Assembly (NCBI GenBank): GCA_030706015.1
Contig: JAUZPI010000003.1
Location: 7,004-71,003, forward strand
Direction of reading: 5' to 3'
Length of the DNA stretch: 64,000 nt
Origin: Bacillota bacterium
GTDB lineage: Bacteria; Bacillota; Clostridia; Clostridiales; Clostridiaceae
Numbering within the stretch: the stretch's first letter is position 1; every line of letters begins with the position of its first letter. The notes beneath the pieces were generated by a model. The model did not search any database. It was not told where the DNA came from and saw only the letters and a list, made by a program, of their open reading frames with translations. The translations under genes were made by a program, and so were the position numbers. This document shows, piece by piece, positions 413-51,697 of this stretch.

Positions 413-616
413 TTAGAATACTCCATTTAGTAGGACCATTACTGCATATCCAAATAGAGTTATAATAGAAGCATTCAATCCTTTTTTCCATCCTACAATA
501 TAAGCAATAATAAATGCTGTTCCCAGGAGCATAGCTACAATATAACTATACCCAAATATACATGCCCATATTGAATGTCCTATACTTGCAAAACCAGATT
601 TCAGAAAATCCAACAT
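413..616 (-). CDS. Small membrane protein with two hydrophobic helices (VirB3-like by position only)
   Basis: 67 aa with two long hydrophobic stretches (IWACIFGYSYIVAMLLGTAFIIAYIV and ASIITLFGYAVMVLLNGVF). Tightly packed between ORFs on the same strand. Confidence 0.5.
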   Translation of the reverse strand: MLDFLKSGFASIGHSIWACIFGYSYIVAMLLGTAFIIAYIVGWKKGLNASIITLFGYAVMVLLNGVF

Positions 617-629
617 AGCAAATACCCCC

Positions 630-1010
630 TTAATTTCCGAAACTCTTAATTAGGTTCAACAGATCTAGAAAGAAAAATATAAAGGCATAACCTACCAAGT
701 ACTTTACGCCAGTTCTGACTATCTGTTTAATGTCAGAATTCCCGAGGTCGGTTATCATGTCCTTACTTGCAAAGATAGCTGCCGCCCAGTACCCTATAGT
801 AAGCATTATCTTCCACATAGCTAAACCCATTTTATTAGCTTTTGCAATATTATCATCCACTCCAGCTGCCAAAACGTGAAGGCTCCCTTGAGTTAAACAA
901 AGAGATACTACCATAAAGCTTATCTTTGCTACTGTAAATAATAATTTCTTAGTTCTATCACTTAATAAAGGTTTCTTTTTTCTCTTACAATAAAAAACAT
1001 GAAATTGCAT
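630..1010 (-). CDS. Secreted or membrane protein with VirB2/TrbC-pilin-like architecture (signal peptide plus two TM helices)
   Basis: Basic N-region KRKKKPLLSDRTKK, a hydrophobic core, LHVLA|AG, then two hydrophobic helices separated by a charged loop (SKDMITDLGNSDIKQIVR). The call rests on architecture only. Confidence 0.4.
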   Translation of the reverse strand: MQFHVFYCKRKKKPLLSDRTKKLLFTVAKISFMVVSLCLTQGSLHVLAAGVDDNIAKANKMGLAMWKIMLTIGYWAAAIFASKDMITDLGNSDIKQIVRTGVKYLVGYAFIFFFLDLLNLIKSFGN

Positions 1011-1322: not shown

Positions 1323-1565
1323 TTATTCCCCCAATATGCTTGATATGGCATTAGAAACACTCTTATCTAATTTATTATCTTTTACAGGCTCCCTGACTTC
1401 TGGCGGTGGATTATTCTGAATTGTGATATTTGCATATCTGTATTTTAGAAAGAATCTTACAGCATCTTTAATAAAGCAACTCCTATTCCCTTGCCCTTTT
1501 ATCTCTAGAAGTAATTTAATATCTTCATCTGTTTCCTTAAAACTTAGAGGAATTGTTTTAGACAT
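1323..1565 (-). CDS. Ribbon-helix-helix (CopG/Arc-like) DNA-binding protein candidate
   Basis: N-terminus MSKTIPLSFKETDEDIKLLLEIKGQGNRSCFIKDAVRFFL has a beta-strand plus two-helix pattern. Inverted repeats tagatagaa/ttctatcta lie in its upstream region (about 1600..1645). Confidence 0.45.
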   Translation of the reverse strand: MSKTIPLSFKETDEDIKLLLEIKGQGNRSCFIKDAVRFFLKYRYANITIQNNPPPEVREPVKDNKLDKSVSNAISSILGE

Positions 1566-1741: not shown

Positions 1742-1960
1742 CTACTCAAGATGCCATATTTCCTCTACTCTTTTATTAAGTTTTTTAGCTACCTTTAGAG
1801 CTATAAGTAAAGGTGGAGTTGATTCTTCATTCTCCCACTTTATGTACGTTTGTATTGATATATCTATCATTCTGGCAAATTCACTTTTACTATCAATCAT
1901 GTATTCCTTAAGTCTTATCTCTTTTAATTTGCATTTAAAACCTTTACTCAAGTTAATCAC
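1742..1960 (-). CDS. XRE-family helix-turn-helix transcriptional regulator
   Basis: 72 aa. KEIRLKEYMIDSKSEFARMIDISIQTYIKWENEES is a typical HTH_3 pattern. A hairpin gcatct/agatgc plus U-run overlaps the stop codon. Confidence 0.75.
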   Translation of the reverse strand: MINLSKGFKCKLKEIRLKEYMIDSKSEFARMIDISIQTYIKWENEESTPPLLIALKVAKKLNKRVEEIWHLE

Positions 1961-2041: not shown

Positions 2042-2152
2042 ATGTATTTTTGTTTGGAGGTATTAAGTATTCTGATATTAATATTAATGTTATTAGTACC
2101 GATTTGTATTGTATATATTATAGCTTTATTAAGTGCAAAAAAGATGATTTAA
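2042..2152 (+). CDS. 36-aa hydrophobic mini-protein (type I toxin-like or holin-like candidate), divergent from the XRE gene
   Basis: GAGGTG lies 5 nt upstream of the ATG. Peptide MYFCLEVLSILILILMLLVPICIVYIIALLSAKKMI, stop TAA. A terminator follows at 2172..2212. Confidence 0.5.
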   Translation: MYFCLEVLSILILILMLLVPICIVYIIALLSAKKMI

Positions 2153-2171
2153 TGTGAAAATAAGATAAAGA

Positions 2172-2212
2172 AAAACGATTGGTTTTAAAGAATGAAACCT
2201 ATCGTTTTTTTA
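2172..2212 (+). terminator. Intrinsic terminator
   Basis: aacgat-t-ggttt ... aaacc-t-atcgtt stem followed by TTTTTTT. Confidence 0.6.
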
Positions 2213-2452
2213 TAAAATTCATGTATTATTAATTCAAATAGGAAGAAAAGTGGCTTAAGACAGCATAATGCAAGCACTTAGTAGCATTTACAACCTATTA
2301 AAATTTACAAAAGAAATAAGCAGTATTGTTAAAATAAGCTCAGTTACAAGCAGAAAATTAACAATACTTCATAATGAAAAGGACATGTTATTACTTCATT
2401 AGAAGTTTTGACATATTCACTGTTTTTTAACCCCCAGATTTATAACATAAAA

Positions 2453-3532
2453 CTAATTTATATGTGTAATAAATTCTTTGAGGATTTCGCTGATATGTAT
2501 AAAATATTCATTATTAATAACAGCAAAATCCCCATACTCAAGCCTATAGATATTATACTTTTCTTTTTCCTCTAAGTATTGTTTATCCACAATGCCATTA
2601 TTATGTACATGAATATTCCTTCTTTTTACCATTTCAATGATATCAGTGAAGATATTTTTATCTTTAATAGTAAATAGTTCCTCATTGAATTCGTACAAAG
2701 TAAGTAATAGTTTATAAAGATGTATATTATCAAGAGCTTCTTTTACTAGGTTAGTTTTAAATTCATCGAAATTCTTGCATTTTCCAATGTCTGTATATGA
2801 AACTTTTCCTTTTGGAACTAGCTTATCAATACATTTAAAAAAATTATTGCAATATATTTCTTCAGATATTTCGTACATTATAGCATCAAATGCCGTAATT
2901 AATAAAATGAAGGATTGTCTGTATATATTAATTGGATTATTATCATCAAAAATATTATATAAGGTTTTTAAATTTACTAATTTATCATAATTATAATTCA
3001 ATTTAGCCACGTAATAATTATTATATTCTATCTTGCAGTATTCAATTAGTTTTTTATAATCTTCTATGCTAAATCTAGAGTAGTATTTTCGACCATCAGG
3101 CGTAAACCTTTCTATCTCGTTCTTTAATTCTTCCGCTGAAAGATTATTGATATATTCTTCATACGATCCATCTACATAACACGGGTCTAGATAATTTAAT
3201 AGGCCATGCTCCTTTTTTAAAATTTCTAACGATTCTGCCCATGATGGAATTTTTATTATATTATAAACTTTTCTCTCTTGTTCATAATTTTTAAGTTCAA
3301 CATTAATTTCTTCATATATTTGTTTTATTATTGATTGATTTTGCTTGTGTTCATTGGATTCGCTAGCATATAAATTAAATCCCTTTACTAATTTTTCAAT
3401 ATTTTCTGTCTCAATATAAACACACAGATCCTTATACTGCATATAGAAATTATCTTCAATATACTGAACATAATTTAATATTGTTTCTAGTTCGCCTAAA
3501 AATCTATTTATGGATAATTGAAGAGAATCCAT
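2453..3532 (-). CDS. HEPN-motif protein (AbiD/AbiF-like Rx4H motif), candidate abortive-infection or defence RNase
   Basis: 359 aa. The C-terminal helical region contains MVKRRNIHVHNNG (RNxxxH = Rx4-6H HEPN signature). The N-terminal ~200 aa are not recognisable. It lies downstream of the lysis cassette. Confidence 0.5.
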   Translation of the reverse strand: MDSLQLSINRFLGELETILNYVQYIEDNFYMQYKDLCVYIETENIEKLVKGFNLYASESNEHKQNQSIIKQIYEEINVELKNYEQERKVYNIIKIPSWAESLEILKKEHGLLNYLDPCYVDGSYEEYINNLSAEELKNEIERFTPDGRKYYSRFSIEDYKKLIEYCKIEYNNYYVAKLNYNYDKLVNLKTLYNIFDDNNPINIYRQSFILLITAFDAIMYEISEEIYCNNFFKCIDKLVPKGKVSYTDIGKCKNFDEFKTNLVKEALDNIHLYKLLLTLYEFNEELFTIKDKNIFTDIIEMVKRRNIHVHNNGIVDKQYLEEKEKYNIYRLEYGDFAVINNEYFIHISEILKEFITHIN

Positions 3533-3744
3533 TTTATCTACTCCTTTCTTTTTTCATATTTCACAAAACATTTGTATTCGATTTTATTTTATGAAAAAGT
3601 GAAATAAATCCTAGGACTGGCAAATGCCAATTCTGGGGGATTATTATGTTACTTATGTTAAGATTAAAGGACATGTCATCACCTGTTGATTGAAGTATTG
3701 ACATGTCAATATTAATTTAAAAATATTAATTTAAAAATGAAAAA

Positions 3745-4527
3745 CTATATCTCCCAAGCATCATCGCTCATGTATTTACAAGGTTCTTTTTCCACCTCAT
3801 TGACTTTTACTCTAAAAATCTTTCCCAAAAACTCATTTTGTACCTCATCTTGCAACATTTTTAAAAGATATTGCAGTTTTTCAGCATTATCATCAAAGAA
3901 TATTCTAAAGAATACAAGTTGATTTATATCTTTCTCGGAAAATTGTTCACACTTATCAAAATGGTTTGATGCTGTATATCGTGCAGTGTTTAAAGTATTT
4001 TTTTGAGTATCATATATCTTGGAGTATAGTTCATTAATATCTTTTATTCGATCTTGAAATTTATAGAGTATAATAATTCGCGTTTCAAAAATGTTATTTA
4101 ATGCTTTAATCTCATTGCTACATTTTTCTCCAGAGTTTTTAATATTCTCATATTCTTTCATTAGCGAATCTATAACCATTAAAGTACTATTAGCTAGATC
4201 TTTTTCTATTTTAGATTTACTTGAAATATCTCTCAAAGTTATATACATCTCACATAGACAATAAGTTCTACTGTAATCAATTATATTCTCAATAAAATTA
4301 TACATTTTTACTATTTCTTCATGGATTGATGTTATTTTATCTGTAATAAGTTCTGATACCTTTAGTTGTAAATCAGTTTTAAGCTTACTTTTTTCTCTAA
4401 TTGATGAAATTACGCCGGTCAAAACAGCTCCACTAACTGCACCACCACATAAAGTGACAACCTTACTCCAATCAATATCAGCTATTAGTTTAAAAATTGC
4501 ATAACTAGTTTGGGGATCAGCCATCAT
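3745..4527 (-). CDS. Single-pass membrane protein with a long helical cytoplasmic domain; function unknown
   Basis: AAGGAG lies 6 nt upstream of the ATG at 4527 (the track start at 4542 has no SD). One TM segment, VVTLCGGAVSGAVLTGVISSI; the rest is a charged helical region. Confidence 0.55.
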   Translation of the reverse strand: MMADPQTSYAIFKLIADIDWSKVVTLCGGAVSGAVLTGVISSIREKSKLKTDLQLKVSELITDKITSIHEEIVKMYNFIENIIDYSRTYCLCEMYITLRDISSKSKIEKDLANSTLMVIDSLMKEYENIKNSGEKCSNEIKALNNIFETRIIILYKFQDRIKDINELYSKIYDTQKNTLNTARYTASNHFDKCEQFSEKDINQLVFFRIFFDDNAEKLQYLLKMLQDEVQNEFLGKIFRVKVNEVEKEPCKYMSDDAWEI

Positions 4528-4620
4528 CCAACACTCCTTCATTTTCCTATAGTATTAAACATGAAACGCACATATATCTTATTCTACACATAATATCTCT
4601 TTCCTTCAAAAAATAAGAAA

Positions 4621-4657
4621 AAACCCCCAAGGCTAGCAAATGCTAATCCTGGGGGTT
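4621..4657 (-). terminator. Terminator after the lysis cassette
   Basis: Minus strand: ccccagg-at-tagc attt gcta-g-ccttgggg hairpin followed by gttttttcttatttttt. Confidence 0.6.
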
Positions 4658-4659
4658 TA

Positions 4660-5031
4660 CTATGCTGTAGTTTTATTTTTACTAATATTAATCTCAGCCA
4701 CTCCAGCTTTTATAATATTGAAAATTTCATCTTCTTTTAGTCCTGTCTTTCCTTCAATAAGTTCTAACACCTTAGAATGCTTAAAAGTACCTTCCCAATT
4801 GAATTCCTTACCTAACTGCTCCACTGCCATTACGGTTTCTCTTATTGTTTGTTTATCTTTATTATACTGTTCAGTTCCCATACTTTGCTCTAAGGCTTCT
4901 TTTTGTTTGCTTATCAATTCTTTTTTAGCATCAAGGTATGATTTTACCTGTCTTCTGGCTACCTCTAAAATAGTGCCTATAACGGCCACTAAAATTGGTA
5001 CAATAATTTGATTTATAACTAATTCTTTCAT
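4660..5031 (-). CDS. Holin-like protein (LL-H holin family-like: N-terminal TM plus charged tail)
   Basis: N-terminus VINQIIVPILVAVIGTILEV is a TM helix, followed by a highly charged helical tail. Adjacent to the endolysin gene. Confidence 0.5.
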   Translation of the reverse strand: MKELVINQIIVPILVAVIGTILEVARRQVKSYLDAKKELISKQKEALEQSMGTEQYNKDKQTIRETVMAVEQLGKEFNWEGTFKHSKVLELIEGKTGLKEDEIFNIIKAGVAEINISKNKTTA

Positions 5032-5082: not shown

Positions 5083-6078
5083 CTAGCAATTCTCGTCCAA
5101 AAGTTTTGACCAAGTTTGAGAACCGACCACGCCATCAGGAACTAATCTGTGTGATGCCTGCCAGTTCTGAACATTAATTTTAGTTTGATTTCCAAAGGTT
5201 CCATCAATTGAGCCGCCACATCTGTATTGAATATACCTAGTAGCATATTCATAGTGTGGGTAAGGTACTCCATCAACTGATCTACTCAAAATTTGGTCTG
5301 CTGCTCCAGCTGTTCTTGGGCCCCATATTCCATCTACAGATAAACCCATTGCTTTTTGGAACTCTCTAATAGTAGAATCTGTTTGAGGTCCTTCTATTCC
5401 ATCTACAACTAGATTTTTCTTTAACAGAGTGTTTAACTGTTGCTGAATTGTTTTGATAGTGTCATTGACCTGGGTGATAGCTGCAGCCTCTGCTTTTACT
5501 GGATTACTGCTTGTATTTCCTGTAAAAATAGCTTCTGAAAATACATCTAAGTCACAATCTCCTGTAATGCCTGGTACACTACCGTGTTCAGAATACTGCC
5601 ATCCAACAAAGTTTGGTACTGAAGGTTGATGTGATCCATAGTTTGCAATCCATATTGGAATATCTGTAATGGTAGCTAGGTTAATATATTCGGTAAGGAA
5701 TGAGCTGTAAGTATAAAGTACACATTCCTTACCTGCAGCCTTCATAAGATCAAAGAAAGTCCTAACGTTATTTGTAATTTGCTGTAGGCTTTGTCCTAAA
5801 TCCACTTCACAATCAATAGCATATTTGCAATCTACAGGCAGTCCAGCAGTGGCATTTATCAAATTATTAACTTCATCCTGCATTGCATTGGCTCTTAAAA
5901 AGTGGTAGAATCCTACCTTTAAACCTACGGATTTTGCTTGGTTATAGTAATCCTTTAAGGTATTTGCCACATAAGTTTTCCCTTCTGTAGCTTTTATGTA
6001 GACTACCTCTACACCGCTGTTTTTTACTTCTTGAAAATCTACGTTCCCTTGGTATGGTGAAATATCTATTCCCTTCAT
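5083..6078 (-). CDS. Endolysin: GH25 muramidase with C-terminal peptidoglycan-binding (PG_binding_1) repeats
   Basis: MKGIDISPYQGNVDFQEVKNSGVEVVYIKATEG is a GH25 N-terminus. The C-terminus has repeats DGIEGPQTDSTIREFQKAMGLSVDGIWGPRT and DGTFGNQT...LVPDGVVGSQTWSKL. Confidence 0.9.
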   Translation of the reverse strand: MKGIDISPYQGNVDFQEVKNSGVEVVYIKATEGKTYVANTLKDYYNQAKSVGLKVGFYHFLRANAMQDEVNNLINATAGLPVDCKYAIDCEVDLGQSLQQITNNVRTFFDLMKAAGKECVLYTYSSFLTEYINLATITDIPIWIANYGSHQPSVPNFVGWQYSEHGSVPGITGDCDLDVFSEAIFTGNTSSNPVKAEAAAITQVNDTIKTIQQQLNTLLKKNLVVDGIEGPQTDSTIREFQKAMGLSVDGIWGPRTAGAADQILSRSVDGVPYPHYEYATRYIQYRCGGSIDGTFGNQTKINVQNWQASHRLVPDGVVGSQTWSKLLDENC

Positions 6079-6676: not shown

Positions 6677-8629
6677 TTATGCTATTACAGAATATTCAAC
6701 TGTAATTGTTCCATCTGTAAAATTATTATAGGCTATATTACTTCCTATTATATAAGGCGTTAGTTTAATAATTAATGGACTTATAATAACTGTACCATTA
6801 CTATAATTTTCACTACTATATAGTCCTTGAAAACCAATTACTATTCCTGATACATTATAGTTTTTAATTGAGTAAGATACGCTAAACTCCTTACCTTTGA
6901 ACTCGTCTGGAAGCTGTACAGTTACTGATTGATTGTTATTTACAACGACTTCACCTTTGTAATTTAAATAATGATATTCCTTTTTTGTGGCTCCATTTAT
7001 ATGCTGCAATCCATCCGCTGAAATTTTAGTAAGAGTTCCATCCGAATGCGTCCACTGGGAGTAATCTTTAGTATGTTGAGCTGTATCCCCTGATTTACCC
7101 AGAGTAAAGGTTTGACCATCAAAACTATAGTCCCTACCAACCAATTTTAAGTCCGTACCATCAAAATATAAATTATAATCGGTTTTTGAATTTCCAATAA
7201 GTAGAGTTCCTTGGTCTAAATTGAATTGAACTTTACCACCTACAAGTAGGCCGGTTACAATTAAATCTGCTACAAATCCTTTCCCTGTCCCCCAGGTACG
7301 CCAGTTCCAAGCACCACCTATTTTATCCTTTGCAATAGAAAAGATGCCTGGACCCAAGTATAAAGCACCATAATCTTCGCTTGCTGCATTTGTATTCTCC
7401 AGTAGTATTCCTTTACCCTCAATTACTTGAGCATTTTGATAAGCTCCAGAAGCTATTAACTGATTCTTTAAGGTATCTATTATGCCTTGCAGAAAATAAG
7501 TATTAAGTTTACCTTGCGCTGTTAAAACTGCATCTAAAGCATTTGCCGCCCTTTGCATATTAATTTGCCTGTCTGTCATTGTTTCAAATTTGTTATCTAT
7601 TGTTAGTTTAGAGTTCCATGGATCTAGTAAGTCTTCATCTATCTCTATAACCGTAAAATAATCATCTACGTTTAATACCTCATTTTCGACTTTATAGTCA
7701 TTTCCAACCTCAAAATCATCAATGGTTAAATTCAATACATTAAGGTTTACTGCTGTTAACTGTAGTTTTATTTTAGCCTTTTTAGCATTATCTAGGTATT
7801 CTTGACCTGCTGCCTTTAATAAATTAACATCCTCTATATCCTTTAAATCTGCAATCTGCTCTATTATTCCATATTGTGCAACTGATTCAGCATCCTCTAA
7901 GTAGTCCTTACCATTATTCACAGTTTCAATTGTTGTACCATCCTTGCCAACTGGGACCACTCTAGTAGCTATATTGGTTACATCCTCGTCAAGTATCATA
8001 TCCTGCATATTGTAACCTAGTTTAATTTTAGTTGTGCTTTGCTGTCCTACTAAGCCAGTATAATCCAAATACCTTATACTATTTTCTTTCCTTACCTTTA
8101 AAACTCCACCAAACTTATTAACAAATTTATCAATAATAAAATTTAGTGATTTTTCATAGTTGGCTTGAATATCTAAGACACCTGTTACATCAACTCTCCC
8201 AAGAACAAACTGCTTGTCACTCGTGGTATGGCTATTATGGTTATCTACAATTAACTGCAGTGCATTTATCAGAATCATTCCTGACAAATCCCATGCTCTT
8301 GTATTGGTATCATTCAAGTATGCAAGTTCCCCCTCGCAAACCACTTCTTTATAGAACTGTCCAGTATTGTCCATTTTACGAGGTGAGCTTATTACTCTGC
8401 CTTCAAATCTTAAAGTATTGTCTCTAGTATCATAAACTTGAACAAATGTTACTAGGTCGTATATTTTAGAATATCCAGCATTTTGAATAGGAATAGTAAA
8501 AGTTAATTGCTCTGGAACTGACTTTTTTTTATTAAGGTTGAGTTTTAAAAATTTAGGAGTATCTTTACTTGGGTTAGGATAATGAACTGTTATTATTTCA
8601 GTTCCGGTCATTAGTTTTACCGAGTACAT
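6677..8629 (-). CDS. Tail-associated protein (Tal / prophage-tail minor structural protein, N-terminal region family)
   Basis: 650 aa. N-terminus MYSVKL...TFTIPIQNAGYSKIYDLVTFVQVYDTRDNTLRFEGRVI resembles siphovirus Tal N-termini. Located in the tail module. Confidence 0.65.
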   Translation of the reverse strand: MYSVKLMTGTEIITVHYPNPSKDTPKFLKLNLNKKKSVPEQLTFTIPIQNAGYSKIYDLVTFVQVYDTRDNTLRFEGRVISSPRKMDNTGQFYKEVVCEGELAYLNDTNTRAWDLSGMILINALQLIVDNHNSHTTSDKQFVLGRVDVTGVLDIQANYEKSLNFIIDKFVNKFGGVLKVRKENSIRYLDYTGLVGQQSTTKIKLGYNMQDMILDEDVTNIATRVVPVGKDGTTIETVNNGKDYLEDAESVAQYGIIEQIADLKDIEDVNLLKAAGQEYLDNAKKAKIKLQLTAVNLNVLNLTIDDFEVGNDYKVENEVLNVDDYFTVIEIDEDLLDPWNSKLTIDNKFETMTDRQINMQRAANALDAVLTAQGKLNTYFLQGIIDTLKNQLIASGAYQNAQVIEGKGILLENTNAASEDYGALYLGPGIFSIAKDKIGGAWNWRTWGTGKGFVADLIVTGLLVGGKVQFNLDQGTLLIGNSKTDYNLYFDGTDLKLVGRDYSFDGQTFTLGKSGDTAQHTKDYSQWTHSDGTLTKISADGLQHINGATKKEYHYLNYKGEVVVNNNQSVTVQLPDEFKGKEFSVSYSIKNYNVSGIVIGFQGLYSSENYSNGTVIISPLIIKLTPYIIGSNIAYNNFTDGTITVEYSVIA

Positions 8630-8690: not shown

Positions 8691-9740
8691 TTAAGCAATT
8701 TGATTTTCTTTGTAAACAATTTTATTACTTTTACCAATGAAATAATAGAAATATTCGTTAACTATATAGCAAGTAGGTAAAAATATTACAATTGAAATAG
8801 TTGTAATAATAATTCCCCAAATTAATGAGTTTCCATTAATTGTTGATTTGGGAACTTTAAATATAAAAACTAATATACCTTTTAATAGCGTAAATACTAC
8901 AGTTTGATGTAAACACATTAGTATTAAACTATTTTTACCAATATAAGATAGTAGTTTACTCTTTATACAATTAGATACTATAAAAATCATACCTATTCCT
9001 GATAAAGCTGATAAATAAAAGTAGAATATATTTCCATACTTGTTTACTGCCATATCAACTTTACTTATACTATTATTTAAATAACAACAAGTTATACTAA
9101 AAATTAATAAACTAATAAAAACAAATATACTTTTATAATTGGCCATTTTTATCAAAATAATATCTTTCTTGCTATATAATAAATTGCCTAATCCATAAAA
9201 TACTACTGCATTTAAAGCAATGTCAATTCCCCAAGGAAACTTAAACGTATTAAATATAGAGTTGAAATATCCAACTATAGCACTTAAAATTAATATTGAA
9301 TATAAAATATACTTGTTTTTTACTATATATAGCAATGTATAAAATATTATACTAACTATAAATAAACAAGGTAAAAACCAAAGCGCAGGATTATAAATCA
9401 AATCTCGACCATATAAAAAATCAATAAATATTTTTTCGATGCTTACACTTGCATAATTCCCAAACCTTCTACCTATTAATACCCAAAATAAAAGCGTGAC
9501 ACTTGAAAATGAAATATATGGTATAATTAATGAGTTAAATTTTCTTTTAAGGAATATTTTAAAGTTGTTATATTTTTTTATGTTAAATAAACAGCCTGAT
9601 AAAAAGAAAAATAATGGCATATGAAAAGAAAAAATATACTTGTCCAAATCTAGAGGAATTGCTGTATGTCCTAACAATACTAATATTATCCCAATACCCC
9701 TCATATTATCAATATTTTTCTTCCTTTGATTATTAAGCAC
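8691..9740 (-). CDS. Acyltransferase family 3 integral membrane protein (OafA/Oac-like O-acyltransferase)
   Basis: 349 aa with about 10 hydrophobic helices. N-terminal MRGIGIILVLLGHT motif and FFFLSG are typical of Acyl_transf_3. Confidence 0.8.
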   Translation of the reverse strand: MLNNQRKKNIDNMRGIGIILVLLGHTAIPLDLDKYIFSFHMPLFFFLSGCLFNIKKYNNFKIFLKRKFNSLIIPYISFSSVTLLFWVLIGRRFGNYASVSIEKIFIDFLYGRDLIYNPALWFLPCLFIVSIIFYTLLYIVKNKYILYSILILSAIVGYFNSIFNTFKFPWGIDIALNAVVFYGLGNLLYSKKDIILIKMANYKSIFVFISLLIFSITCCYLNNSISKVDMAVNKYGNIFYFYLSALSGIGMIFIVSNCIKSKLLSYIGKNSLILMCLHQTVVFTLLKGILVFIFKVPKSTINGNSLIWGIIITTISIVIFLPTCYIVNEYFYYFIGKSNKIVYKENQIA

Positions 9741-9811: not shown

Positions 9812-11575
9812 TCAACCAAATGACACTCTAGTATATCCATTGTGAGGTAAGGTTGATGAAAAAGATATTGTAATTTTTCCGTTTACTACATCTACCGCAC
9901 TGATATATGCTGTAACGTTATTTTGCATGTTATTCCAATTACAAGATGATATTGCAAATGGATATGTAATTTGAGATATAAAACAACTATACATTGTTGC
10001 ACTTGTAGCTCCAGCATATGCAAATATATTTTCATCCGAATAACAATTAGTTGTAGTCCCTAATGAATTTTTATAATATCCTATACAATTTGTAAAACAA
10101 ACTTTTGCATTAGCGTTAAAATTAGTTGAATTAATTACCAATGACATATTAAAAATATCAAACAAACAATTAGTAAATAAAAGCCTTCCTCCACTACTTC
10201 CTGTATCAAATAAATAATTTACACTGCTGTACCACGATCCAGATGTTCCACTTGAATTAGATTCAAAATGACAATTATTAAAAAATAACATAGCATCATT
10301 AACACTGAAAAAATAATTAGAATAGTCACAACTACAGTTATTAAAATACATATCAAGTGCATTTGAACTTGCTTTACAAATTAACTGTGAGTTAAAGAAA
10401 TTGCAATTGTTAAAAGTAATTCTCTCTCCTGCCGTTGTTGCGCTTCTAGAATACAAGTCTGCATAAATATCTATTGCACATAAATAAATATTACAATAAT
10501 CCAAAGTAATTAAATATGTATTACTATGCGCTAAGTCAATTCCGTAATTAAAATAGTAAATACTAACTTTGTGAAAATTTAACTTATTTCCTATAACTGA
10601 TAAACCAGTTGAAGTTGTAGTAGAAAAATTCGATGCATTACCAGTGTTGTTTCCTTTTATATTTATATTACTTAATGGTGTAAACCCACTTCCATTAATT
10701 GTTATAGCAACTATATTTCCCGCACTAGAAAAGTCTAATAATGAGCCATTACCAATTAAAGTGACTCCTTGTGGTATTGTAATACCATTACTACATTTTA
10801 ATATCTTATTTGGTGGTAACATTAAACTTCCTGATCCAAAATTTGTACTAATATAGTTTAGTAAATTTTGAATTATCATACTATCATCAACTATATTGTC
10901 TGCATGTACAGCTATTTGTCCAGTAGGTGGATATAGGGCATTGATTTGGATGCCCTCTAATTTATTGTTATTGTAAGTTATTTGTGTTTGTTTATCACTT
11001 AATTGTAATCTATCATTTAAAATTGCTTGAACTAGGTTTGTTTCAGATATTTGGCTCATATCACCAGTTTTATCATCACTATACACTCCGATATTCACCC
11101 AGCTAGAGCTATTCCATCTATATCTAGTATGAGTATCGACAGTTTGAGTTGCCCATCCAATAGAAGGATTAGGGTATGTTGTAGCAATATCTGCATAAGT
11201 ATTGACATAAGGTTTCCATATTATTAAGGTATTATTGTTTATATTATTTACAGCACTATTTGCACTTGTTGCGGCGGTATTTGCCGCACTAGCTGCGTTA
11301 GTGGCATTTGTAGTTGCTGTAGTTGCTGCACTTGCCGCTGTATTTGCATTATTTGTTGCTGTTTCGGCTTCTGTCTTGAAAGTGTTAAATTCAGTTACTC
11401 TCTCATTTTCATTTGTAACCCTTTCATTTTCGGCTGATATTCTGTTATTCTCATTCTGTGTGTATTGGTCCACTTGATTATTGATAGCTTCTATGCCATC
11501 AGCAATGCTTGATCTAACTTCTTTACCCAAGATAGCATTTCTAATAGCTAAAATTTTATCTGAAATACTTGCCAT
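9812..11575 (-). CDS. Tail fibre or tailspike with a C-terminal right-handed beta-helix (pectate-lyase-like) domain, putative depolymerase
   Basis: N-terminus has a coiled, A/T/N-rich linker (ENERVTNENERVTEFN, NANTAASAATTATTNATNAASAANTAATSANSA). C-terminus has a periodic N-C-x-F/Y pattern (NCNFFN, NCSCDY, NCHFES, NCLFDI). The start overlaps the Dit stop (TAATG). Confidence 0.65.
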   Translation of the reverse strand: MASISDKILAIRNAILGKEVRSSIADGIEAINNQVDQYTQNENNRISAENERVTNENERVTEFNTFKTEAETATNNANTAASAATTATTNATNAASAANTAATSANSAVNNINNNTLIIWKPYVNTYADIATTYPNPSIGWATQTVDTHTRYRWNSSSWVNIGVYSDDKTGDMSQISETNLVQAILNDRLQLSDKQTQITYNNNKLEGIQINALYPPTGQIAVHADNIVDDSMIIQNLLNYISTNFGSGSLMLPPNKILKCSNGITIPQGVTLIGNGSLLDFSSAGNIVAITINGSGFTPLSNINIKGNNTGNASNFSTTTSTGLSVIGNKLNFHKVSIYYFNYGIDLAHSNTYLITLDYCNIYLCAIDIYADLYSRSATTAGERITFNNCNFFNSQLICKASSNALDMYFNNCSCDYSNYFFSVNDAMLFFNNCHFESNSSGTSGSWYSSVNYLFDTGSSGGRLLFTNCLFDIFNMSLVINSTNFNANAKVCFTNCIGYYKNSLGTTTNCYSDENIFAYAGATSATMYSCFISQITYPFAISSCNWNNMQNNVTAYISAVDVVNGKITISFSSTLPHNGYTRVSFG

Positions 11576-46599: not shown

Positions 46600-47412
46600 C
46601 TAAGCAATTTTGTATTTGATAGCCATTTCTTTGGCTATTGCTGTATAAATTTCGATAAGCTTCTTATCTTCTGCGATTACATCTAAGTAATTCAAATTAT
46701 CTATTTTTGTTTTTGTAGCACCTTCTAATGCTAATCTTCCTCTCATATTCTTCAACCTAACTTTTAAATCGCAAGAAGCACGTTCTTGGAGCGCTTTATA
46801 GATTTCATCCTTAGGCTTCTGATAATCTTTGAGCTTGTAGCATATTTTAGTTATAAGAGAGTTTGTTTCACTTCTCCAATTTTGGGAAGGTCTAATTTCT
46901 ACTACTTCTCTTATATCCTCAACCTCTTGTTTAACTGCTGCAGTTTCTTGAGATGCCTTCTCTATTTGCAATCTCATATCTTTCATTTCTTGCAACTGTT
47001 GAATTAATATATCTTCTAAGCAAGTTGGCTTTTTACCTAAGAAAACTTCTGCTAATGCATCTTTTGCCTTAAGTTGATATTCAATTAACCTCTCCACAAC
47101 TTCTAGTTGCCCTGTTTTCATGCTTGGAGTAATATTAATCTTTGCTAGCCACAAAGGTAAATAATCAATATCTATTGCTATGGTTTCATTATTTGAATCA
47201 AATACCCCTGCCTCGAATTTCAAGCACCCTTTTTTAAGAACTAAATCGGTTTGAACATTTTGAACCTGTGTATCCTTTTGACTTTTACTTAATCCAACTC
47301 CTTTGCAGATATAGCTAACACCTGTGTAAATTTTGTCAGTGTTTTTGTCTTTTACTGCAACTAAATTATCACCATAAAAATTTATCTCTTTTATGATTAA
47401 GTCGTTCCTCAC
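46600..47412 (-). CDS. Antirepressor-like protein (ORF6N/KilAC-type)
   Basis: N-terminus IKEINFYGDNLVAVKDKNTDKIYTGVSYICKGVGL. Second gene of the early operon after cro. Confidence 0.5.
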   Translation of the reverse strand: MRNDLIIKEINFYGDNLVAVKDKNTDKIYTGVSYICKGVGLSKSQKDTQVQNVQTDLVLKKGCLKFEAGVFDSNNETIAIDIDYLPLWLAKINITPSMKTGQLEVVERLIEYQLKAKDALAEVFLGKKPTCLEDILIQQLQEMKDMRLQIEKASQETAAVKQEVEDIREVVEIRPSQNWRSETNSLITKICYKLKDYQKPKDEIYKALQERASCDLKVRLKNMRGRLALEGATKTKIDNLNYLDVIAEDKKLIEIYTAIAKEMAIKYKIA

Positions 47413-47866: not shown

Positions 47867-47872
47867 TTGGGT

Positions 47873-48346
47873 ATGCTTAATAAATTAGAAACCGAATCCT
47901 TTGGTAAATATATAACAAGATTAAGAGAAAACAAAGGATATTCTCAAAGAAAATTAGCTCAAGTCACTGGTATAAGTAATACAACTATTAGCAGGATTGA
48001 GAAGGATATAACTACAAATCCTGATTTAAATACACTAAAACTATTGTCAAAATACCTAGATGTTGATGAAATATATATGCTTAAAGCTTCTGGATATAAA
48101 GATGAAAATAGTTTAGAAAAAGAAAATGCTCAACCTGAATTATCAAAAAAAGATGAAAAAGATATAGAAAAAAGACTTAAACAAGTAAAAGAAGAATTTA
48201 TGGAGCAACAAAAAGGACTAATGCTTTCTGGAGAACCAGTTTCAGAGGAAGCGCTACAAAGTATTTTAGATGCTCTTGAATTTGGTATGAAACAAGCAAA
48301 AATTATAAATAAAAAATATACTCCAAAACAATACAGAAAAGAATAG
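47873..48346 (+). CDS. CI-like XRE-family repressor (ImmR-like)
   Basis: GGAGG SD then ATG at 47873. YSQRKLAQVTGISNTTISRIEKD HTH. Confidence 0.8.
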   Translation: MLNKLETESFGKYITRLRENKGYSQRKLAQVTGISNTTISRIEKDITTNPDLNTLKLLSKYLDVDEIYMLKASGYKDENSLEKENAQPELSKKDEKDIEKRLKQVKEEFMEQQKGLMLSGEPVSEEALQSILDALEFGMKQAKIINKKYTPKQYRKE

Positions 48347-49006: not shown

Positions 49007-49462
49007 ATGAACTTAGAATTAACAGGAAGACAAGGAAAAAGTATTGTTGTAGAAGGAAACACAGTTAAAATAATAAAGAAAGGTAAACTTTTCTCAGCTA
49101 AAAGAGAAAAGACCCTGCCAATAAGAAATATTTCTTCCGTTGAAGTTAAAAAGCCAGGGTTGGCAGTGGGTTTCATTCAATTTTCTATCGCTGGAGGTGT
49201 AGCAAGAGATAGTTCTGCTAAATTAACAGGTGGAGCATTTGATGCAGTAAATGATGAAAATTCAGTTATATTCGCTGATAAAAAAGCTTATGAAGTTGCA
49301 TTAAAAATCAAAGAATACATAGAATCATTTTCTGAATCAGCAGCAGTTGTTACTAAGGAATCAGCGGCTGATGAATTAGTTAAATTCAAAAAATTATTAG
49401 ATGATGGTGTTATAAATCAAGATGAATTTAACACCAAAAAGAAACAGCTACTTGGGTTATAA
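49007..49462 (+). CDS. PH-like (DUF4429-like) plus SHOCT domain protein
   Basis: C-terminus ELVKFKKLLDDGVINQDEFNTKKKQLLGL is a SHOCT pattern. Confidence 0.6.
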   Translation: MNLELTGRQGKSIVVEGNTVKIIKKGKLFSAKREKTLPIRNISSVEVKKPGLAVGFIQFSIAGGVARDSSAKLTGGAFDAVNDENSVIFADKKAYEVALKIKEYIESFSESAAVVTKESAADELVKFKKLLDDGVINQDEFNTKKKQLLGL

Positions 49463-49615: not shown

Positions 49616-49635
49616 TTAATATTTTGGAGGTATAT

Positions 49636-51183
49636 ATGATAGCAGCGATATATAGTAGAAAATCAGTTATAACATGTAAAGGAGAATCTGTAGAGAATCA
49701 AATTCAGATTTGCAAAGACTATGGAAGAAATTTAGGTGTGACTGAATACCTAATTTATGAGGATGAAGGTTTCTCCGGTAAGAATACAGCAAGACCTGAG
49801 TTTCAGAAAATGTTAGAAGATGCTAAGAAGAAAAAATTTGATACTTTAATTTGTTATAGATTAGATCGTATCAGTAGAAATATAGCAGACTTTTCAGCCT
49901 TTATGGAAAGACTTGAAAAGCTAAAAATTAATTTTGTTAGTGTAAGAGAGCAATTTGACACTAGCACTCCAATGGGACGTGCTATGCTTTACATAGCTTC
50001 TGTATTTGCTCAATTGGAGCGTGAAACTATAGCTGAACGTGTTAAGGATAATATGCTCGAATTGGCTAAGACTGGCCGATGGTTGGGCGGAAATCCACCA
50101 CTTGGTTTCCAGGCTGTAAAGACAGTTGAAAAAGGTAAACCAGTGACTTATCTACAGATAATACCAGAGGAAATAGAATTGGTTAAACTAATTTTTGATA
50201 AATACCTAGAGTATAAAAGTATATATAAAGTGGTAAAATATTTAGTAACAAAAAATATTGGTATTGAGTACCGTAAATGGGGTGTGCACCCTGTTAGAAG
50301 GGTTTTGACAGCTCCAAATTATGTTATAACTAACGAAAAGGTTAAAGAATACTGTGAAGACAGAGGAATAAATATTGTTGGCGAAATGAACGGTAACGGA
50401 TTTATACCTTACAATCAAAAAACTGGTACAAACAATTTTAAACCAATGAATGAATGGGTATTTGCTACCGGAAAACATAAAGGCATTATAAAAAGCGATG
50501 ATTGGATCCTAGTGCAGGAAATGCTTGATAAAAATAAAACTAAAATGGATATTTCAAGAGGAAGTTCAAAATACTCTTACTTAACAGGTATTTTAAGATG
50601 TTCAAAATGCGGAATCAGTATGCGTGTGGCTTTAGGAAATACACCTAAAGGTAAAAGTGAAAGAACTGCTTACTACTCTTGCACAAATAAAAGTTTATAT
50701 GGGAAATGCGACAATAAAAACATTCGAAAAGATGCAATGGAAAAAGCAGTGCTTGAAAAACTCTATAATTTAAGCATAAATGAGGATGAATTTAATAAAA
50801 TATATAACACTAAATCAACATATGATATGAGTGAAATTAAAAGGATTAAGAAGTCTATTTCTAGCAATGATACTGCTATTCAAAATCTAATAAAACAAAT
50901 GGCTCTATTAAGCATAGAAGCTTCTGCATATATTACAATTGAACTAGAACGATTAAGTAAAGAAAATACTAGATTAAAGGAAGAACTATTAGGATTAGAA
51001 AGACAAAAAGAAATGCAAAACGAAAATGATTTAAAAAATCAACTTTTTTACAAGCAGCTTAAAAATTTTAAAACTTCTTTTGAAAAATGTAAAGATAACC
51101 AGCAGCGAAGATTACTAATATCAAGTGTGGTCCGTAAAATAGAATGGGATGGTGAAAATATTAATATAGAGCTATTAAATTAA
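49636..51183 (+). CDS. int: Large serine recombinase (phage integrase)
   Basis: GGAGG SD then ATG at 49636. IAAIYSRKS catalytic-Ser region, recombinase domain, zinc ribbon CSKCG...YYSC...GKC, and a C-terminal coiled coil. Confidence 0.9.
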   Translation: MIAAIYSRKSVITCKGESVENQIQICKDYGRNLGVTEYLIYEDEGFSGKNTARPEFQKMLEDAKKKKFDTLICYRLDRISRNIADFSAFMERLEKLKINFVSVREQFDTSTPMGRAMLYIASVFAQLERETIAERVKDNMLELAKTGRWLGGNPPLGFQAVKTVEKGKPVTYLQIIPEEIELVKLIFDKYLEYKSIYKVVKYLVTKNIGIEYRKWGVHPVRRVLTAPNYVITNEKVKEYCEDRGINIVGEMNGNGFIPYNQKTGTNNFKPMNEWVFATGKHKGIIKSDDWILVQEMLDKNKTKMDISRGSSKYSYLTGILRCSKCGISMRVALGNTPKGKSERTAYYSCTNKSLYGKCDNKNIRKDAMEKAVLEKLYNLSINEDEFNKIYNTKSTYDMSEIKRIKKSISSNDTAIQNLIKQMALLSIEASAYITIELERLSKENTRLKEELLGLERQKEMQNENDLKNQLFYKQLKNFKTSFEKCKDNQQRRLLISSVVRKIEWDGENINIELLN

Positions 51184-51211: not shown

Positions 51212-51697
51212 CTAATTTGTGACATAACCAGATCCTACACACATCGATATTATATGTGTTCCTCCTTCCTTATCAATATATCTAAAACTAAAGGCATCGC
51301 TTGTCATTCCAAATCTATCAATCTGAATAGATTTATCAATTCTTGCAATGTTAATTTGAGTTAATTTAAAACCCTTTGGAACCTGGAGAATGCCTCTTTT
51401 TCTTGAAGTTATACCACCAGTATTATATTCATGAGCGTAGAAGGAAATGGAATTATTGCTTATATCCACAAGTATATGACCGCCTTGTTCCTTTTCTCTG
51501 CAGAACATTTTTGAATTGTTAATAAATACAAGAAATGAATTATTGAACTTGGTTGTTTCAATATTGTTTTTCATCTTATTGTAAGCCTTGGATCCAAATA
51601 CACCAATGCTGCACAGCATAGATATTATTACAATAGCTGCTGTTAGCTCTACTAGGGTGTATCCCTTGCTAACTCTATTTAACTTCATAATTGCCAC
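51212..51697 (-). CDS. Prepilin-type N-terminal cleavage/methylation domain protein (minor pseudopilin)
   Basis: KGYTLVELTAAIVIISML class III signal. Confidence 0.8.
   Translation of the reverse strand: MAIMKLNRVSKGYTLVELTAAIVIISMLCSIGVFGSKAYNKMKNNIETTKFNNSFLVFINNSKMFCREKEQGGHILVDISNNSISFYAHEYNTGGITSRKRGILQVPKGFKLTQINIARIDKSIQIDRFGMTSDAFSFRYIDKEGGTHIISMCVGSGYVTN

What the first reader, a model, noticed from the sequence alone, without database searches (positions are those of the whole stretch)
2453..4527. Accessory gene pair at the prophage end: HEPN-motif protein plus single-pass membrane protein
Two genes with no structural or lysis role lie downstream of the lysis cassette, beyond its terminator at 4621..4657.
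- 3745..4527 encodes a protein with one N-terminal TM helix and a ~230-aa helical domain.
- 2453..3532 encodes a 359-aa protein whose C-terminal helical domain carries RRNIHVH (RNxxxH, the Rx4-6H HEPN RNase signature seen in AbiD/AbiF-type abortive-infection proteins). Its ~200-aa N-terminal region is not recognisable.

By eye both genes look more A+T-rich than the neighbouring phage genes. Each is followed by a copy of the same ~45-bp module (see the separate finding). A prophage end is a classic location for defence or superinfection-exclusion cargo. I do not recognise a HEPN protein with this N-terminal domain paired with a TM partner as a named system.
Basis: partly seen in the sequence, partly recalled or inferred. 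Interest (0 to 1): 0.7.

Follow-up and report, generated by a model that had tools for sequence, protein, structure and literature searches.

The report
Unnamed HEPN-like gene plus orphan membrane gene
Two low-GC cargo genes sit at the end of a prophage: one belongs to a large, unannotated family that looks like a HEPN-type RNA-cutting defence toxin carried by many mobile elements, and the other is a one-off membrane-anchored protein that is not its conserved partner.

Summary
They are low-GC (0.25 and 0.28, against 0.33 for the prophage) and sit beyond the holin terminator.

**ORF-A (2453..3532, minus strand, 359 aa)**
- It belongs to an unannotated family: 1,067 50%-identity cluster representatives match at E<=1e-3.
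- It has no Pfam, NCBIfam, PADLOC or PHROG hit.
- The conserved core is the C-terminal ~165 aa. E300, R304, R305 and G313 are invariant. N306, H308, H310, R205, Q206 and D216 are at least 90% conserved across 106 diverse members.
- In the AlphaFold model (pLDDT 86), RNIHVH sits at the end of the penultimate helix, as in HEPN domains.
- The only Pfam family that members hit repeatedly is HEPN_RiboL-PSP, of the Abi2/Swt1 (AbiD/AbiF) clade: 7 of 96 C-terminal domains, best E 1.7e-4. These hits are weak.
- Foldseek and PDB profile searches found no HEPN match.
- Homologues are cargo of prophage ends, integrase elements and mobilisable elements, and lie next to McrBC, Fic and LA2681-HEPN genes.

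**ORF-B (3745..4527)**
- It is an orphan with one N-terminal hydrophobic helix.
- No homologue locus carries it or a comparable TM partner.

**Verdict:** ORF-A is a plausible stand-alone HEPN abortive-infection-type gene of a new family. The HEPN-TM pair reading is not supported. Interest is moderate.

The parts
2453..3532 (-). ORF-A: 359-aa protein of an unannotated family, a candidate HEPN-type RNase.
   Evidence: ORF and translation. SD AAAGGAG lies upstream of the ATG. There are 17 full-length homologues and 1,067 cluster representatives at E<=1e-3. The AF2 model has pLDDT 86.2 and pTM 0.74 and is all-alpha.
2456..2947 (-). Conserved C-terminal domain of ORF-A (residues 196-359): the HEPN-like core.
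   Evidence: All invariant and near-invariant columns of the 106-sequence alignment fall here, except the extreme N-terminal motif. HEPN_RiboL-PSP hits persist when only this region is scanned: 7 of 96, best E 1.7e-4.
2603..2623 (-). R304-R305-N306-I-H308-V-H310: the RNxxxH (Rx4H) motif.
   Evidence: Sequence. Conservation. It lies at the C-terminal end of helix 295-311, followed by loop 312-340 and the last helix 341-357. This is the position described for HEPN in PMC3710099, section 7.
2882..2929 (-). N202-A217 (NIYRQSFILLITAFDA): second conserved motif, in the putative HEPN helix-2, including near-invariant D216.
   Evidence: R205, Q206, F208, F215, D216, A217 and D221 are at least 90% conserved. 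The motif lies in helix 203-229.
2948..3532 (-). Variable N-terminal helical region of ORF-A (residues 1-195): a candidate sensor or oligomerisation part.
   Evidence: It is poorly conserved apart from RFxxExxxIxxYV near the N-terminus. The only matches are coiled-coil-type noise against PDB sequences.
3745..4527 (-). ORF-B: 260-aa orphan protein with one N-terminal hydrophobic helix.
   Evidence: ORF. It matches only itself among 5.8 billion proteins. It has no Pfam, PADLOC, PHROG or NCBIfam family and no relative in any fetched locus.
4405..4461 (-). Predicted TM helix of ORF-B (residues 23-41).
   Evidence: Kyte-Doolittle 19-residue mean of 1.82. A positively charged flank (REKSKLK) follows, suggesting a cytoplasmic C-terminal domain (inference).
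4581..4609 (-). Sigma-70-like promoter match (TTGAAG, 17 nt, TAGAAT) upstream of ORF-B.
   Evidence: This is a consensus match only, and the number of such matches in the region is no higher than in shuffles.
4621..4658 (-). Intrinsic terminator of the lysis cassette.
   Evidence: Inverted repeat I16. It folds at -24.1 kcal/mol, z -4.26, and is followed by a U-run.
3607..3642 (-). Weaker hairpin between ORF-B and ORF-A that aligns with the holin terminator (a decayed copy).
   Evidence: Alignment. It folds at -12.3 kcal/mol, z -3.3.
3666..3704 (-). Copy 1 of the shared ~40-nt module (two ACATGTC cores), downstream of ORF-B.
2378..2414 (-). Copy 2 of the shared module, downstream of ORF-A.
2322..2368 (-). 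Hairpin followed by a U-rich tract downstream of ORF-A: a candidate terminator.
   Evidence: It folds at -14.6 kcal/mol, z -3.7.
2171..2209 (-). Second hairpin plus U-tract downstream of ORF-A.
   Evidence: I9. It folds at -11.8 kcal/mol, z -4.0.

Best explanation
ORF-A is a stand-alone cargo gene (moron) of an unnamed family, most likely within the Abi2/Swt1 clade of the HEPN superfamily.

**Proposed mechanism (inferred, not shown)**
- The protein sits idle in the lysogen.
- Its variable ~195-residue N-terminal helical region senses or is released by a signal from an infecting phage.
- The C-terminal domain, probably as a dimer, then uses E300/R305/N306/H310 (with H308) as a metal-independent RNase site.
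- RNA cleavage stops growth or aborts the infection. This is the way Tha-1, AbiD/AbiF-type and ApeA-type proteins are thought to work.

**ORF-B**
- It is an independent orphan gene for a membrane-anchored protein, with its own promoter-like site.
- It is not a conserved partner of ORF-A.
- Its role is unknown; superinfection exclusion or lysis control are guesses.

**Shown here**
- gene structure and low GC;
- family size and residue conservation;
- motif position in the model;
- weak HEPN-specific Pfam signal;
- mobile-element and defence neighbourhoods;
- absence of a conserved partner.

**Inferred**
- RNase activity;
- the defence role;
- the sensing role of the N-terminus;
- dimerisation.
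For: **Conservation**
- The family is conserved over its full length and is large: 1,067 representatives at E<=1e-3 and 140 at E<=1e-30.
- Among 106 diverse members, E300, R304, R305 and G313 are invariant. R205, Q206, D216, D221, N306, H308, H310 and D316 are at least 90% conserved.
- RNxHxH occurs in essentially every full-length representative.

**Structure model**
- Both AF2 models are confident (pLDDT 86 and 85).
- They place the motif at the end of helix 295-311, before a long loop and a final helix. An ~65-residue insert lies between helix 203-229 and helix 295-311.
- This matches the HEPN description in PMC3710099: Rx4-6H at the end of helix-3, a polar residue after R, an acidic residue in helix-2, and an insert between helices 2 and 3.

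**Pfam signal**
- The only Pfam family matched by more than 3 of the 106 members is HEPN_RiboL-PSP: 6 of 106, best E 3.5e-4.
- With the C-terminal domain alone it is 7 of 96, best E 1.7e-4, plus one HEPN_Swt1 hit.
- PMC3710099 Table 1 lists Ribo L-PSP-HEPN in the Abi2/Swt1 group, 'distantly related AbiF and AbiD'.

**Genomic context of homologues**
- End of a C. formicaceticum prophage, after holin and amidase and next to a PIN/HNH gene.
- Directly after McrB-McrC and before a methylase.
- After Fic in two loci.
- Between a KAP NTPase and a TPR-LA2681-HEPN protein.
- In integrase elements.
- Upstream of MobL relaxase-primase genes in at least 6 loci.
- PADLOC hits among the neighbours include PtuA, PDC-S04, SoFic, MTase and REase.

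**Precedent**
- Tha-1 is a prophage-encoded 301-aa protein with an unrecognisable N-terminus and a C-terminal HEPN (RNSIMH). It is a proven tail-activated RNase defence (PMC11087260).
Against: - No HMM in Pfam, NCBIfam, PADLOC or PHROGs matches the window protein itself.
- The HEPN_RiboL-PSP hits are weak, touch only ~7% of members, and could not be inspected residue by residue.
- Foldseek found no HEPN structure and nothing at E<=0.001. This held for the full model and the C-terminal model against the PDB, and for the full model against BFVD.
- Profile searches against PDB sequences found only coiled-coil noise.
- hhalign of the family profile against a genuine LA2681 HEPN domain gave probability about 1% (1.3-1.5%), and against Tha-1 it gave <=0.4%.
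- No experiment exists for any member. The defence role rests on neighbourhood alone, with no statistical enrichment test.
Confidence: 0.55

Rival explanations
1. ORF-B and ORF-A form a two-gene HEPN + transmembrane defence system, in which the membrane protein acts as sensor or effector and the HEPN protein as its partner.
For: The genes are adjacent, co-oriented and both low-GC. Both lie after the lysis terminator, and each is followed by a copy of the same module. A HEPN-TM system is known from phage-inducible chromosomal islands.
Against: - ORF-B has no homologue anywhere.
- None of ~35 homologue loci has an ORF-B relative or a consistent N-terminal-TM neighbour.
- The upstream neighbours are instead Fic, an HExxH protein, DUF4238, McrC, PIN/HNH or small soluble proteins.
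- The genes are 212 bp apart, with a hairpin between them.
- PADLOC gives no hit for either protein.
Confidence: 0.1
2. ORF-A is a helical protein that is not a HEPN RNase. The E-x3-RRNxHxH motif would serve another role, such as metal or ligand binding or a different nuclease chemistry, or the protein acts in mobile-element maintenance rather than defence.
For: No structural or profile match to any solved HEPN. The second conserved histidine (H308), the invariant G313 and the near-invariant D316 are not part of the classical HEPN signature. The family often sits beside relaxase-primase genes of mobilisable elements.
Against: - The motif, its polar second residue and its position at the helix end before the last helix all fit HEPN.
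- The only recurrent Pfam signal is HEPN-specific and maps to the motif-bearing domain.
- The family also occurs in prophages and beside restriction genes, not only in conjugative contexts.
Confidence: 0.25
3. ORF-A is the toxin of a toxin-antitoxin-like module. Its variable upstream neighbour (here ORF-B; elsewhere Fic, an HExxH protein or DUF4238) would be the neutralising or regulating partner.
For: Many homologues have a co-oriented upstream gene of ~230-350 aa at short distance. In L005 and L012 that gene overlaps the homologue by 4 nt. HEPN toxins are commonly neutralised by partners such as MNT.
Against: The upstream genes are unrelated to one another, and several are themselves toxins or defence enzymes (Fic, McrC, PIN/HNH). 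In at least 6 mobilisable-element loci the upstream gene is a 95-aa protein 242 bp away. There is no evidence that ORF-A is toxic on its own.
Confidence: 0.1

Closest known systems
Tha-1/Tha-2 of Staphylococcus aureus prophages (tail-activated HEPN anti-phage system; PMC11087260)
   Same: Both are prophage-encoded single proteins of ~300-360 aa. Each has an unrecognisable N-terminal region and a C-terminal domain carrying RNxxxH. Both are cargo, not structural genes.
   Different: - There is no detectable sequence relation (hhalign probability <=0.4%).
- Tha lies in the lysogeny module next to int/cI with an antisense inhibitor gene ith. ORF-A lies after the lysis cassette, and no small antisense inhibitor gene was identified.
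Abi2/Swt1 clade of HEPN domains: AbiD/AbiD1/AbiF (Pfam Abi_2) and Ribo L-PSP-HEPN (PF18735)
   Same: Both have a conserved R-N-x3-H motif and occur as single-gene proteins on mobile elements. This is the only HEPN clade that gives recurrent, though weak, Pfam hits to family members.
   Different: - The window protein itself hits neither model.
- The hits are far weaker than a family-level match.
- There is no L-PSP domain.
- The extra conserved H308, G313, D316 and the NxYRQ motif define a separate family.
HEPN-TM system of phage-inducible chromosomal islands (cited in PMC12948488 and PMC11087260)
   Same: A HEPN-like gene and a gene for a membrane protein lie side by side on a mobile element.
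   Different: The pairing here is not conserved. ORF-B is an orphan, and PADLOC gives no hit for either protein. Sequence comparison with the PICI proteins themselves could not be made.
ApeA and LA2681-like HEPN single-gene or TPR-fused defence proteins
   Same: These are HEPN effectors found in defence islands. A TPR-LA2681-HEPN gene lies directly next to ORF-A homologues in three loci.
   Different: The family is different (hhalign probability ~1.5%). There is no PADLOC ApeA hit.

Membership tests
HEPN superfamily | Conserved Rx4-6H motif with a polar residue (N/D/H) right after the R (PMC3710099) | tested here: met
   The motif is R305-N306-I-H-V-H310. R305 is invariant, and N306 and H310 are at least 90% conserved in 106 diverse members.
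HEPN superfamily | [quoted passage not shown] | tested here: met
   DSSP on two AF2 models gives helix 203-229, an insert at 230-294, helix 295-311 carrying the motif at its end, a loop at 312-340, and helix 341-357. Only the secondary-structure order could be read. 3-D packing could not be inspected.
HEPN superfamily | Conserved acidic residue in helix-2 near the active site | tested here: inconclusive
   D216 and D221 are at least 90% conserved in helix 203-229, and E300 is invariant in helix-3 as Ex3R. Spatial proximity to the motif was not measurable.
HEPN superfamily | Structural similarity to solved HEPN domains | tested here: not met
HEPN superfamily | Profile or HMM similarity to a recognised HEPN family | tested here: inconclusive
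   - HEPN_RiboL-PSP is the only recurrent Pfam family: 6 of 106 and 7 of 96 members, best E 1.7e-4, plus one HEPN_Swt1 hit.
- The window protein itself has no hit.
- hhalign against LA2681-HEPN and Tha-1 is not significant.
HEPN superfamily | Metal-independent endoribonuclease activity dependent on R and H | not testable with these tools
   This needs biochemistry or a toxicity assay with R305A and H310A mutants.
Abi_2 (AbiD/AbiD1/AbiF, PF07751) | Match to the Abi_2 HMM or the PADLOC AbiD models | tested here: not met
   There is no Pfam hit at E<=1 for the window protein or 26 relatives. Abi_2 is not among the recurrent families at E<=10. PADLOC gives no hit.
Ribo L-PSP-HEPN (PF18735) | Score above the Pfam threshold; fusion to an endoRNase L-PSP domain or an operon with ParB (PMC3710099 Table 1) | tested here: not met
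   The best E is 1.7e-4, in only 7% of members. No L-PSP domain was found. No ParB appears among the listed neighbour families.
Tha | Homology to Tha-1/Tha-2; adjacent antisense ith inhibitor; location in the lysogeny module | tested here: not met
   hhalign probability is 0.2-0.4%. The gene lies after the lysis module.
HEPN-TM two-gene system | Conserved co-occurrence of the HEPN gene with a TM-protein gene | tested here: not met
   ORF-B is an orphan. No TM partner recurs in ~35 loci.

The most novel reading that the evidence does not exclude
The ORF-A family, with at least 1,000 clusters and no model in Pfam, NCBIfam, PADLOC v2 or PHROGs, is a new single-gene anti-phage system. A new type of N-terminal helical sensor would be coupled to a divergent HEPN RNase with an RRNxHxH-G-x2-D active site. 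The system would travel on prophages, integrative elements and mobilisable elements of Clostridia and beyond. It may work with interchangeable upstream partner genes (Fic, HExxH peptidase-like, DUF4238, McrBC, or here the orphan membrane protein).
Probability: 0.2. Interest if true: 0.6.

Novelty: new variant of a known kind. Interest (0 to 1): 0.42.

Why it matters
If ORF-A is an active HEPN RNase used for defence, it adds a sizeable unmodelled family to the defence-gene catalogue. DefenseFinder- and PADLOC-type tools would currently miss it. It would also supply a new sensor domain whose trigger could be mapped with escaper phages.

The locus also shows how prophage ends collect independent low-GC cassettes. 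Each cassette here is bounded by terminator remnants and a shared ~40-nt module.

The finding would not change how HEPN abortive-infection systems are understood.

Tried and rejected
**Searches that found nothing**
- Pfam, PADLOC, PHROGs and NCBIfam on both proteins gave no hit.
- Pfam on 17 close and 10 distant relatives at E<=1 or 0.1 found no HEPN family.
- Megablast of 12 kb against GenBank phages found no match.
- Foldseek of the full model against the PDB and BFVD, and of the C-terminal model against the PDB, gave nothing significant.
- Profile hmmsearch against PDB sequences with A1 and A2 gave only coiled-coil-type hits (influenza HA2, ORF99) in the N-terminal region, treated as compositional noise.
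- hhalign of the family profile against a real LA2681 HEPN domain and against Tha-1 was not significant.
- The shared module was not found in any of the 24 loci fetched at that point.

**Searches that failed technically**
- A third homologous-protein search with the 106-sequence profile returned only known members, because of the candidate cap. That search was wasted.
- The search for related loci with A2 failed because the alignment had no conserved stretch.
- Cluster names for 10 distant representatives were 'hypothetical protein' or absent.
- The supplement of the HEPN paper is only an index page.

**Ideas considered and rejected**
- An HNH/beta-beta-alpha-metal reading of the small hairpin plus helix around the motif: the hairpin has no conserved catalytic residue.
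- attL/attR by exact repeats: only a 10-nt match was found, so the att assignment stays speculative.
Full report
**1. The observation**

The region holds two minus-strand ORFs.

ORF-A is 2453..3532 (359 aa).

ORF-B is listed as 3745..4542:
- Its AAGGAG Shine-Dalgarno at 4534-4539 lies 6 nt before the ATG at 4527.

Upstream context:
- a GH25 + PG_binding endolysin at 5083..6078;
- a holin at 4660..5031;
- a strong hairpin at 4621-4658 (-24.1 kcal/mol, z -4.3) with a U-run.

GC content:

| Region | GC |
|---|---|
| ORF-A | 0.252 |
| ORF-B | 0.284 |
| Prophage body | 0.333 |
| Endolysin | 0.382 |

Other checks:
- RRNIHVH is at residues 304-310 (2603-2623).
- ORF-B has one hydrophobic stretch: the Kyte-Doolittle 19-residue mean is 1.82 at residues 23-41, followed by a basic flank.
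- A ~40-nt module with two ACATGTC cores follows each gene (3666-3704 and 2378-2414). These are the only two copies in the window.

The far end of the prophage is marked by a serine recombinase (49624..51183). Pilin-like and T2SSE ATPase host genes follow it. ORF-A is therefore the last long ORF at the lysis-side end.

**2. ORF-A family**

Family size:
- A search of 5.8 billion proteins gave 17 full-length relatives of 28-49% identity, all unannotated.
- A profile search of 1.84 billion cluster representatives gave 1,067 hits at E<=1e-3 and 140 at E<=1e-30, mostly 350-410 aa.

Conservation in an alignment of 106 diverse members:
- The N-terminal ~195 residues are variable, apart from an RFxxExxxIxxYV motif.
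- The C-terminal ~165 residues are the conserved core.
- E300, R304, R305 and G313 are invariant.
- R205, Q206, F208, F215, D216, A217, D221, N306, H308, H310, D316 and Y319 are at least 90% conserved.
- R-N-x-[H/Y]-x-H is present in essentially every full-length representative.

This is the pattern of an enzyme active site, not a chance motif.

**3. Is it HEPN?**

*For*

The motif is R-N-x3-H with the polar residue after R. AF2 models were made of the whole protein (pLDDT 86, pTM 0.74) and of residues 150-359 (pLDDT 85). Both give:
- helix 203-229, carrying R205, Q206, D216 and D221;
- a ~65-residue insert;
- helix 295-311 with the motif at its C-terminal end;
- a loop at 312-340;
- a last helix at 341-357.

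Anantharaman et al. 2013 (PMC3710099) describe HEPN the same way. It is a four-helix core with Rx4-6H at the end of helix-3 running into the loop to helix-4. It has an acidic residue in helix-2 and frequent inserts of up to ~60 aa between helices 2 and 3.

I scanned all 106 members against Pfam at a permissive threshold.
- The only family hit by more than three members was HEPN_RiboL-PSP (6 members, best E 3.5e-4).
- On the C-terminal domain alone it was 7 of 96 (best E 1.7e-4), plus one HEPN_Swt1 hit.
- Seven members converging on one of 24,736 models, in the motif-bearing domain, is unlikely to be chance.
- Both families belong to the Abi2/Swt1 group. There, Ribo L-PSP-HEPN is noted as 'distantly related AbiF and AbiD'.

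*Against*

- The window protein itself has no HMM hit in Pfam, NCBIfam, PADLOC or PHROGs.
- Foldseek with both models found no PDB or BFVD match at E<=0.001 and no HEPN entry.
- Profile searches against PDB sequences gave only coiled-coil noise.
- hhalign against a genuine LA2681 HEPN domain, found next to a homologue, and against Tha-1 was not significant.

I therefore treat HEPN superfamily membership as likely but not established. Membership of any named family (Abi_2, RiboL-PSP, LA2681, Tha, ApeA) was tested and not met.

**4. Context of homologues**

| Locus | Context |
|---|---|
| L001/L025 (C. formicaceticum) | Homologue (48% id) closes a prophage, after holin-amidase-holin and cargo including a PIN/HNH protein; it lies ~600 bp from the end of the IMG/VR viral contig |
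| L010 | Directly after McrB-McrC, before a C5 methylase |
| L003, L023 | Directly after a Fic gene |
| L013 (Parablautia muri), also L039/L040 | Between a KAP NTPase and a TPR-LA2681-HEPN protein |
| L021, L028 | After DUF4238 |
| L005, L006, L012 | After an integrase and a 244-246-aa HExxH protein whose gene overlaps the homologue by 4 nt |
| L004 | Inside an integrase/relaxase/RadC/ParE element |
| At least six loci | Just upstream of a 932-aa MobL-DUF3991-Toprim relaxase-primase |

PADLOC hits among 85 neighbouring proteins include PtuA, PDC-S04, SoFic, MTase and REase. The gene is therefore mobile-element cargo that often keeps company with defence genes. No formal enrichment test was done.

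**5. ORF-B and the pair**

- ORF-B matches only itself in the 5.8-billion-protein collection.
- It has no family hit.
- It has no relative among all ORFs of the 45 fetched loci.
- The immediate neighbours of ORF-A homologues show no recurrent N-terminal-TM protein of this size.

In the window:
- ORF-B has a promoter-like match just after the holin terminator.
- It is separated from ORF-A by 212 bp.
- That spacer contains the module and a hairpin that aligns with the holin terminator as a decayed copy.
- ORF-A has its own SD and two downstream hairpin/U-tract candidates.

The simplest reading is two independent cassettes, not a two-gene system.

A named HEPN-TM system exists on phage-inducible chromosomal islands (PMC12948488; cited in PMC11087260). 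Nothing ties this locus to it.

**6. Mechanism**

The best-supported model is a stand-alone HEPN-type RNase effector with a variable N-terminal helical region acting as sensor or regulator. This is analogous to Tha-1 of S. aureus prophages. Tha-1 is 301 aa, has an undiscernible N-terminus and a C-terminal HEPN with RNSIMH, and is activated by a minor tail protein of incoming phages (PMC11087260).

Activity, trigger, dimerisation and the defence phenotype are all inferred. The extra conserved H308, G313 and D316 suggest a variant active-site geometry.

**7. Novelty and score**

This is a new, unmodelled family within a well-known kind: HEPN abortive-infection-type genes on mobile elements. It sits next to an orphan membrane protein.

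It is useful for defence-gene catalogues and easy to test, but it is not conceptually surprising. The more interesting pair hypothesis is not supported. Interest is 0.42.

Noticed in passing
window 8691..9740 (-): An Acyl_transf_3 membrane acyltransferase (E 3e-33) has the lowest GC in the region (0.228). It is wedged between tail genes 6677..8629 and 9812..11575. It is probably another moron, possibly modifying a surface polysaccharide.
   Followed up: partly
window 3666-3704 and 2378-2414 (-): A ~40-nt module with two ACATGTC (palindromic ACATGT) cores lies ~35-40 nt after the stop of each cargo gene. The two copies differ by a 2-nt indel. They are the only copies in the window, and the module is absent from the 24 loci fetched at that point. 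It could be an operator, a recombination scar or a shared 3' element.
   Followed up: partly
window 3607-3642 (-) and 2428-2436 (-): The hairpin after ORF-B aligns with the holin terminator at 4621-4658 as a decayed copy (-12.3 vs -24.1 kcal/mol). A CTGGGGGTT remnant of the same 3' arm follows the ORF-A stop. This suggests the cassettes were inserted by recombination at or near the terminator.
   Followed up: partly
window 2059-2100 and 51151-51172: An imperfect palindrome lies downstream of ORF-A. It shares ATATTAATAT, and a looser GGT..AATA..TTAATAT pattern, with the 3' end of the serine recombinase gene (49624..51183). These are candidate attL and attR half-sites, which would make ORF-A the last prophage gene.
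   Followed up: partly
window 49007..49462 (+), 47867..48346 (+), 46600..47412 (-): The lysogeny end of the prophage holds a DUF4429+SHOCT protein, an HTH_3 repressor-like protein and a P22_AR_N antirepressor-like protein next to the serine recombinase. Host pilin-like (51212..51697) and T2SSE ATPase (52082..53722) genes follow.
   Followed up: partly
window 413..616 and 630..1010 (-), 1323..1565 and 1742..1960 (-): Beyond the cargo genes lie two small multi-TM proteins with no family hit, plus an RHH-like (phrog_18533) gene and an HTH_3 gene. It is unclear whether they belong to the host, to the prophage or to another mobile element.
   Followed up: no
L005:7264-8004, L006:7252-7986, L012:5246-5986: A 244-246-aa protein with an HEMCH (HExxH, metallopeptidase-like) motif and no Pfam or NCBIfam hit lies directly upstream of the ORF-A homologue, after an integrase. 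In L005 and L012 its gene overlaps the homologue by 4 nt. It may be a true operon partner in that clade.
   Followed up: partly
L013:7138-8697 (also L039, L040): A 520-aa TPR + HEPN_LA2681 protein (E 7e-60) lies directly downstream of the ORF-A homologue. In L013 a KAP-family NTPase lies upstream. The arrangement looks like a small defence island in Parablautia muri.
   Followed up: partly
L019, L020, L029, L034, L035, L038 (also L011, L026): The ORF-A homologue sits between small ORFs (167 aa and 95 aa) and a 931-932-aa MobL/DUF3991/Toprim relaxase-primase. This is a recurrent mobilisable-element cargo slot. In L019 a group II intron RT is inserted between them.
   Followed up: partly
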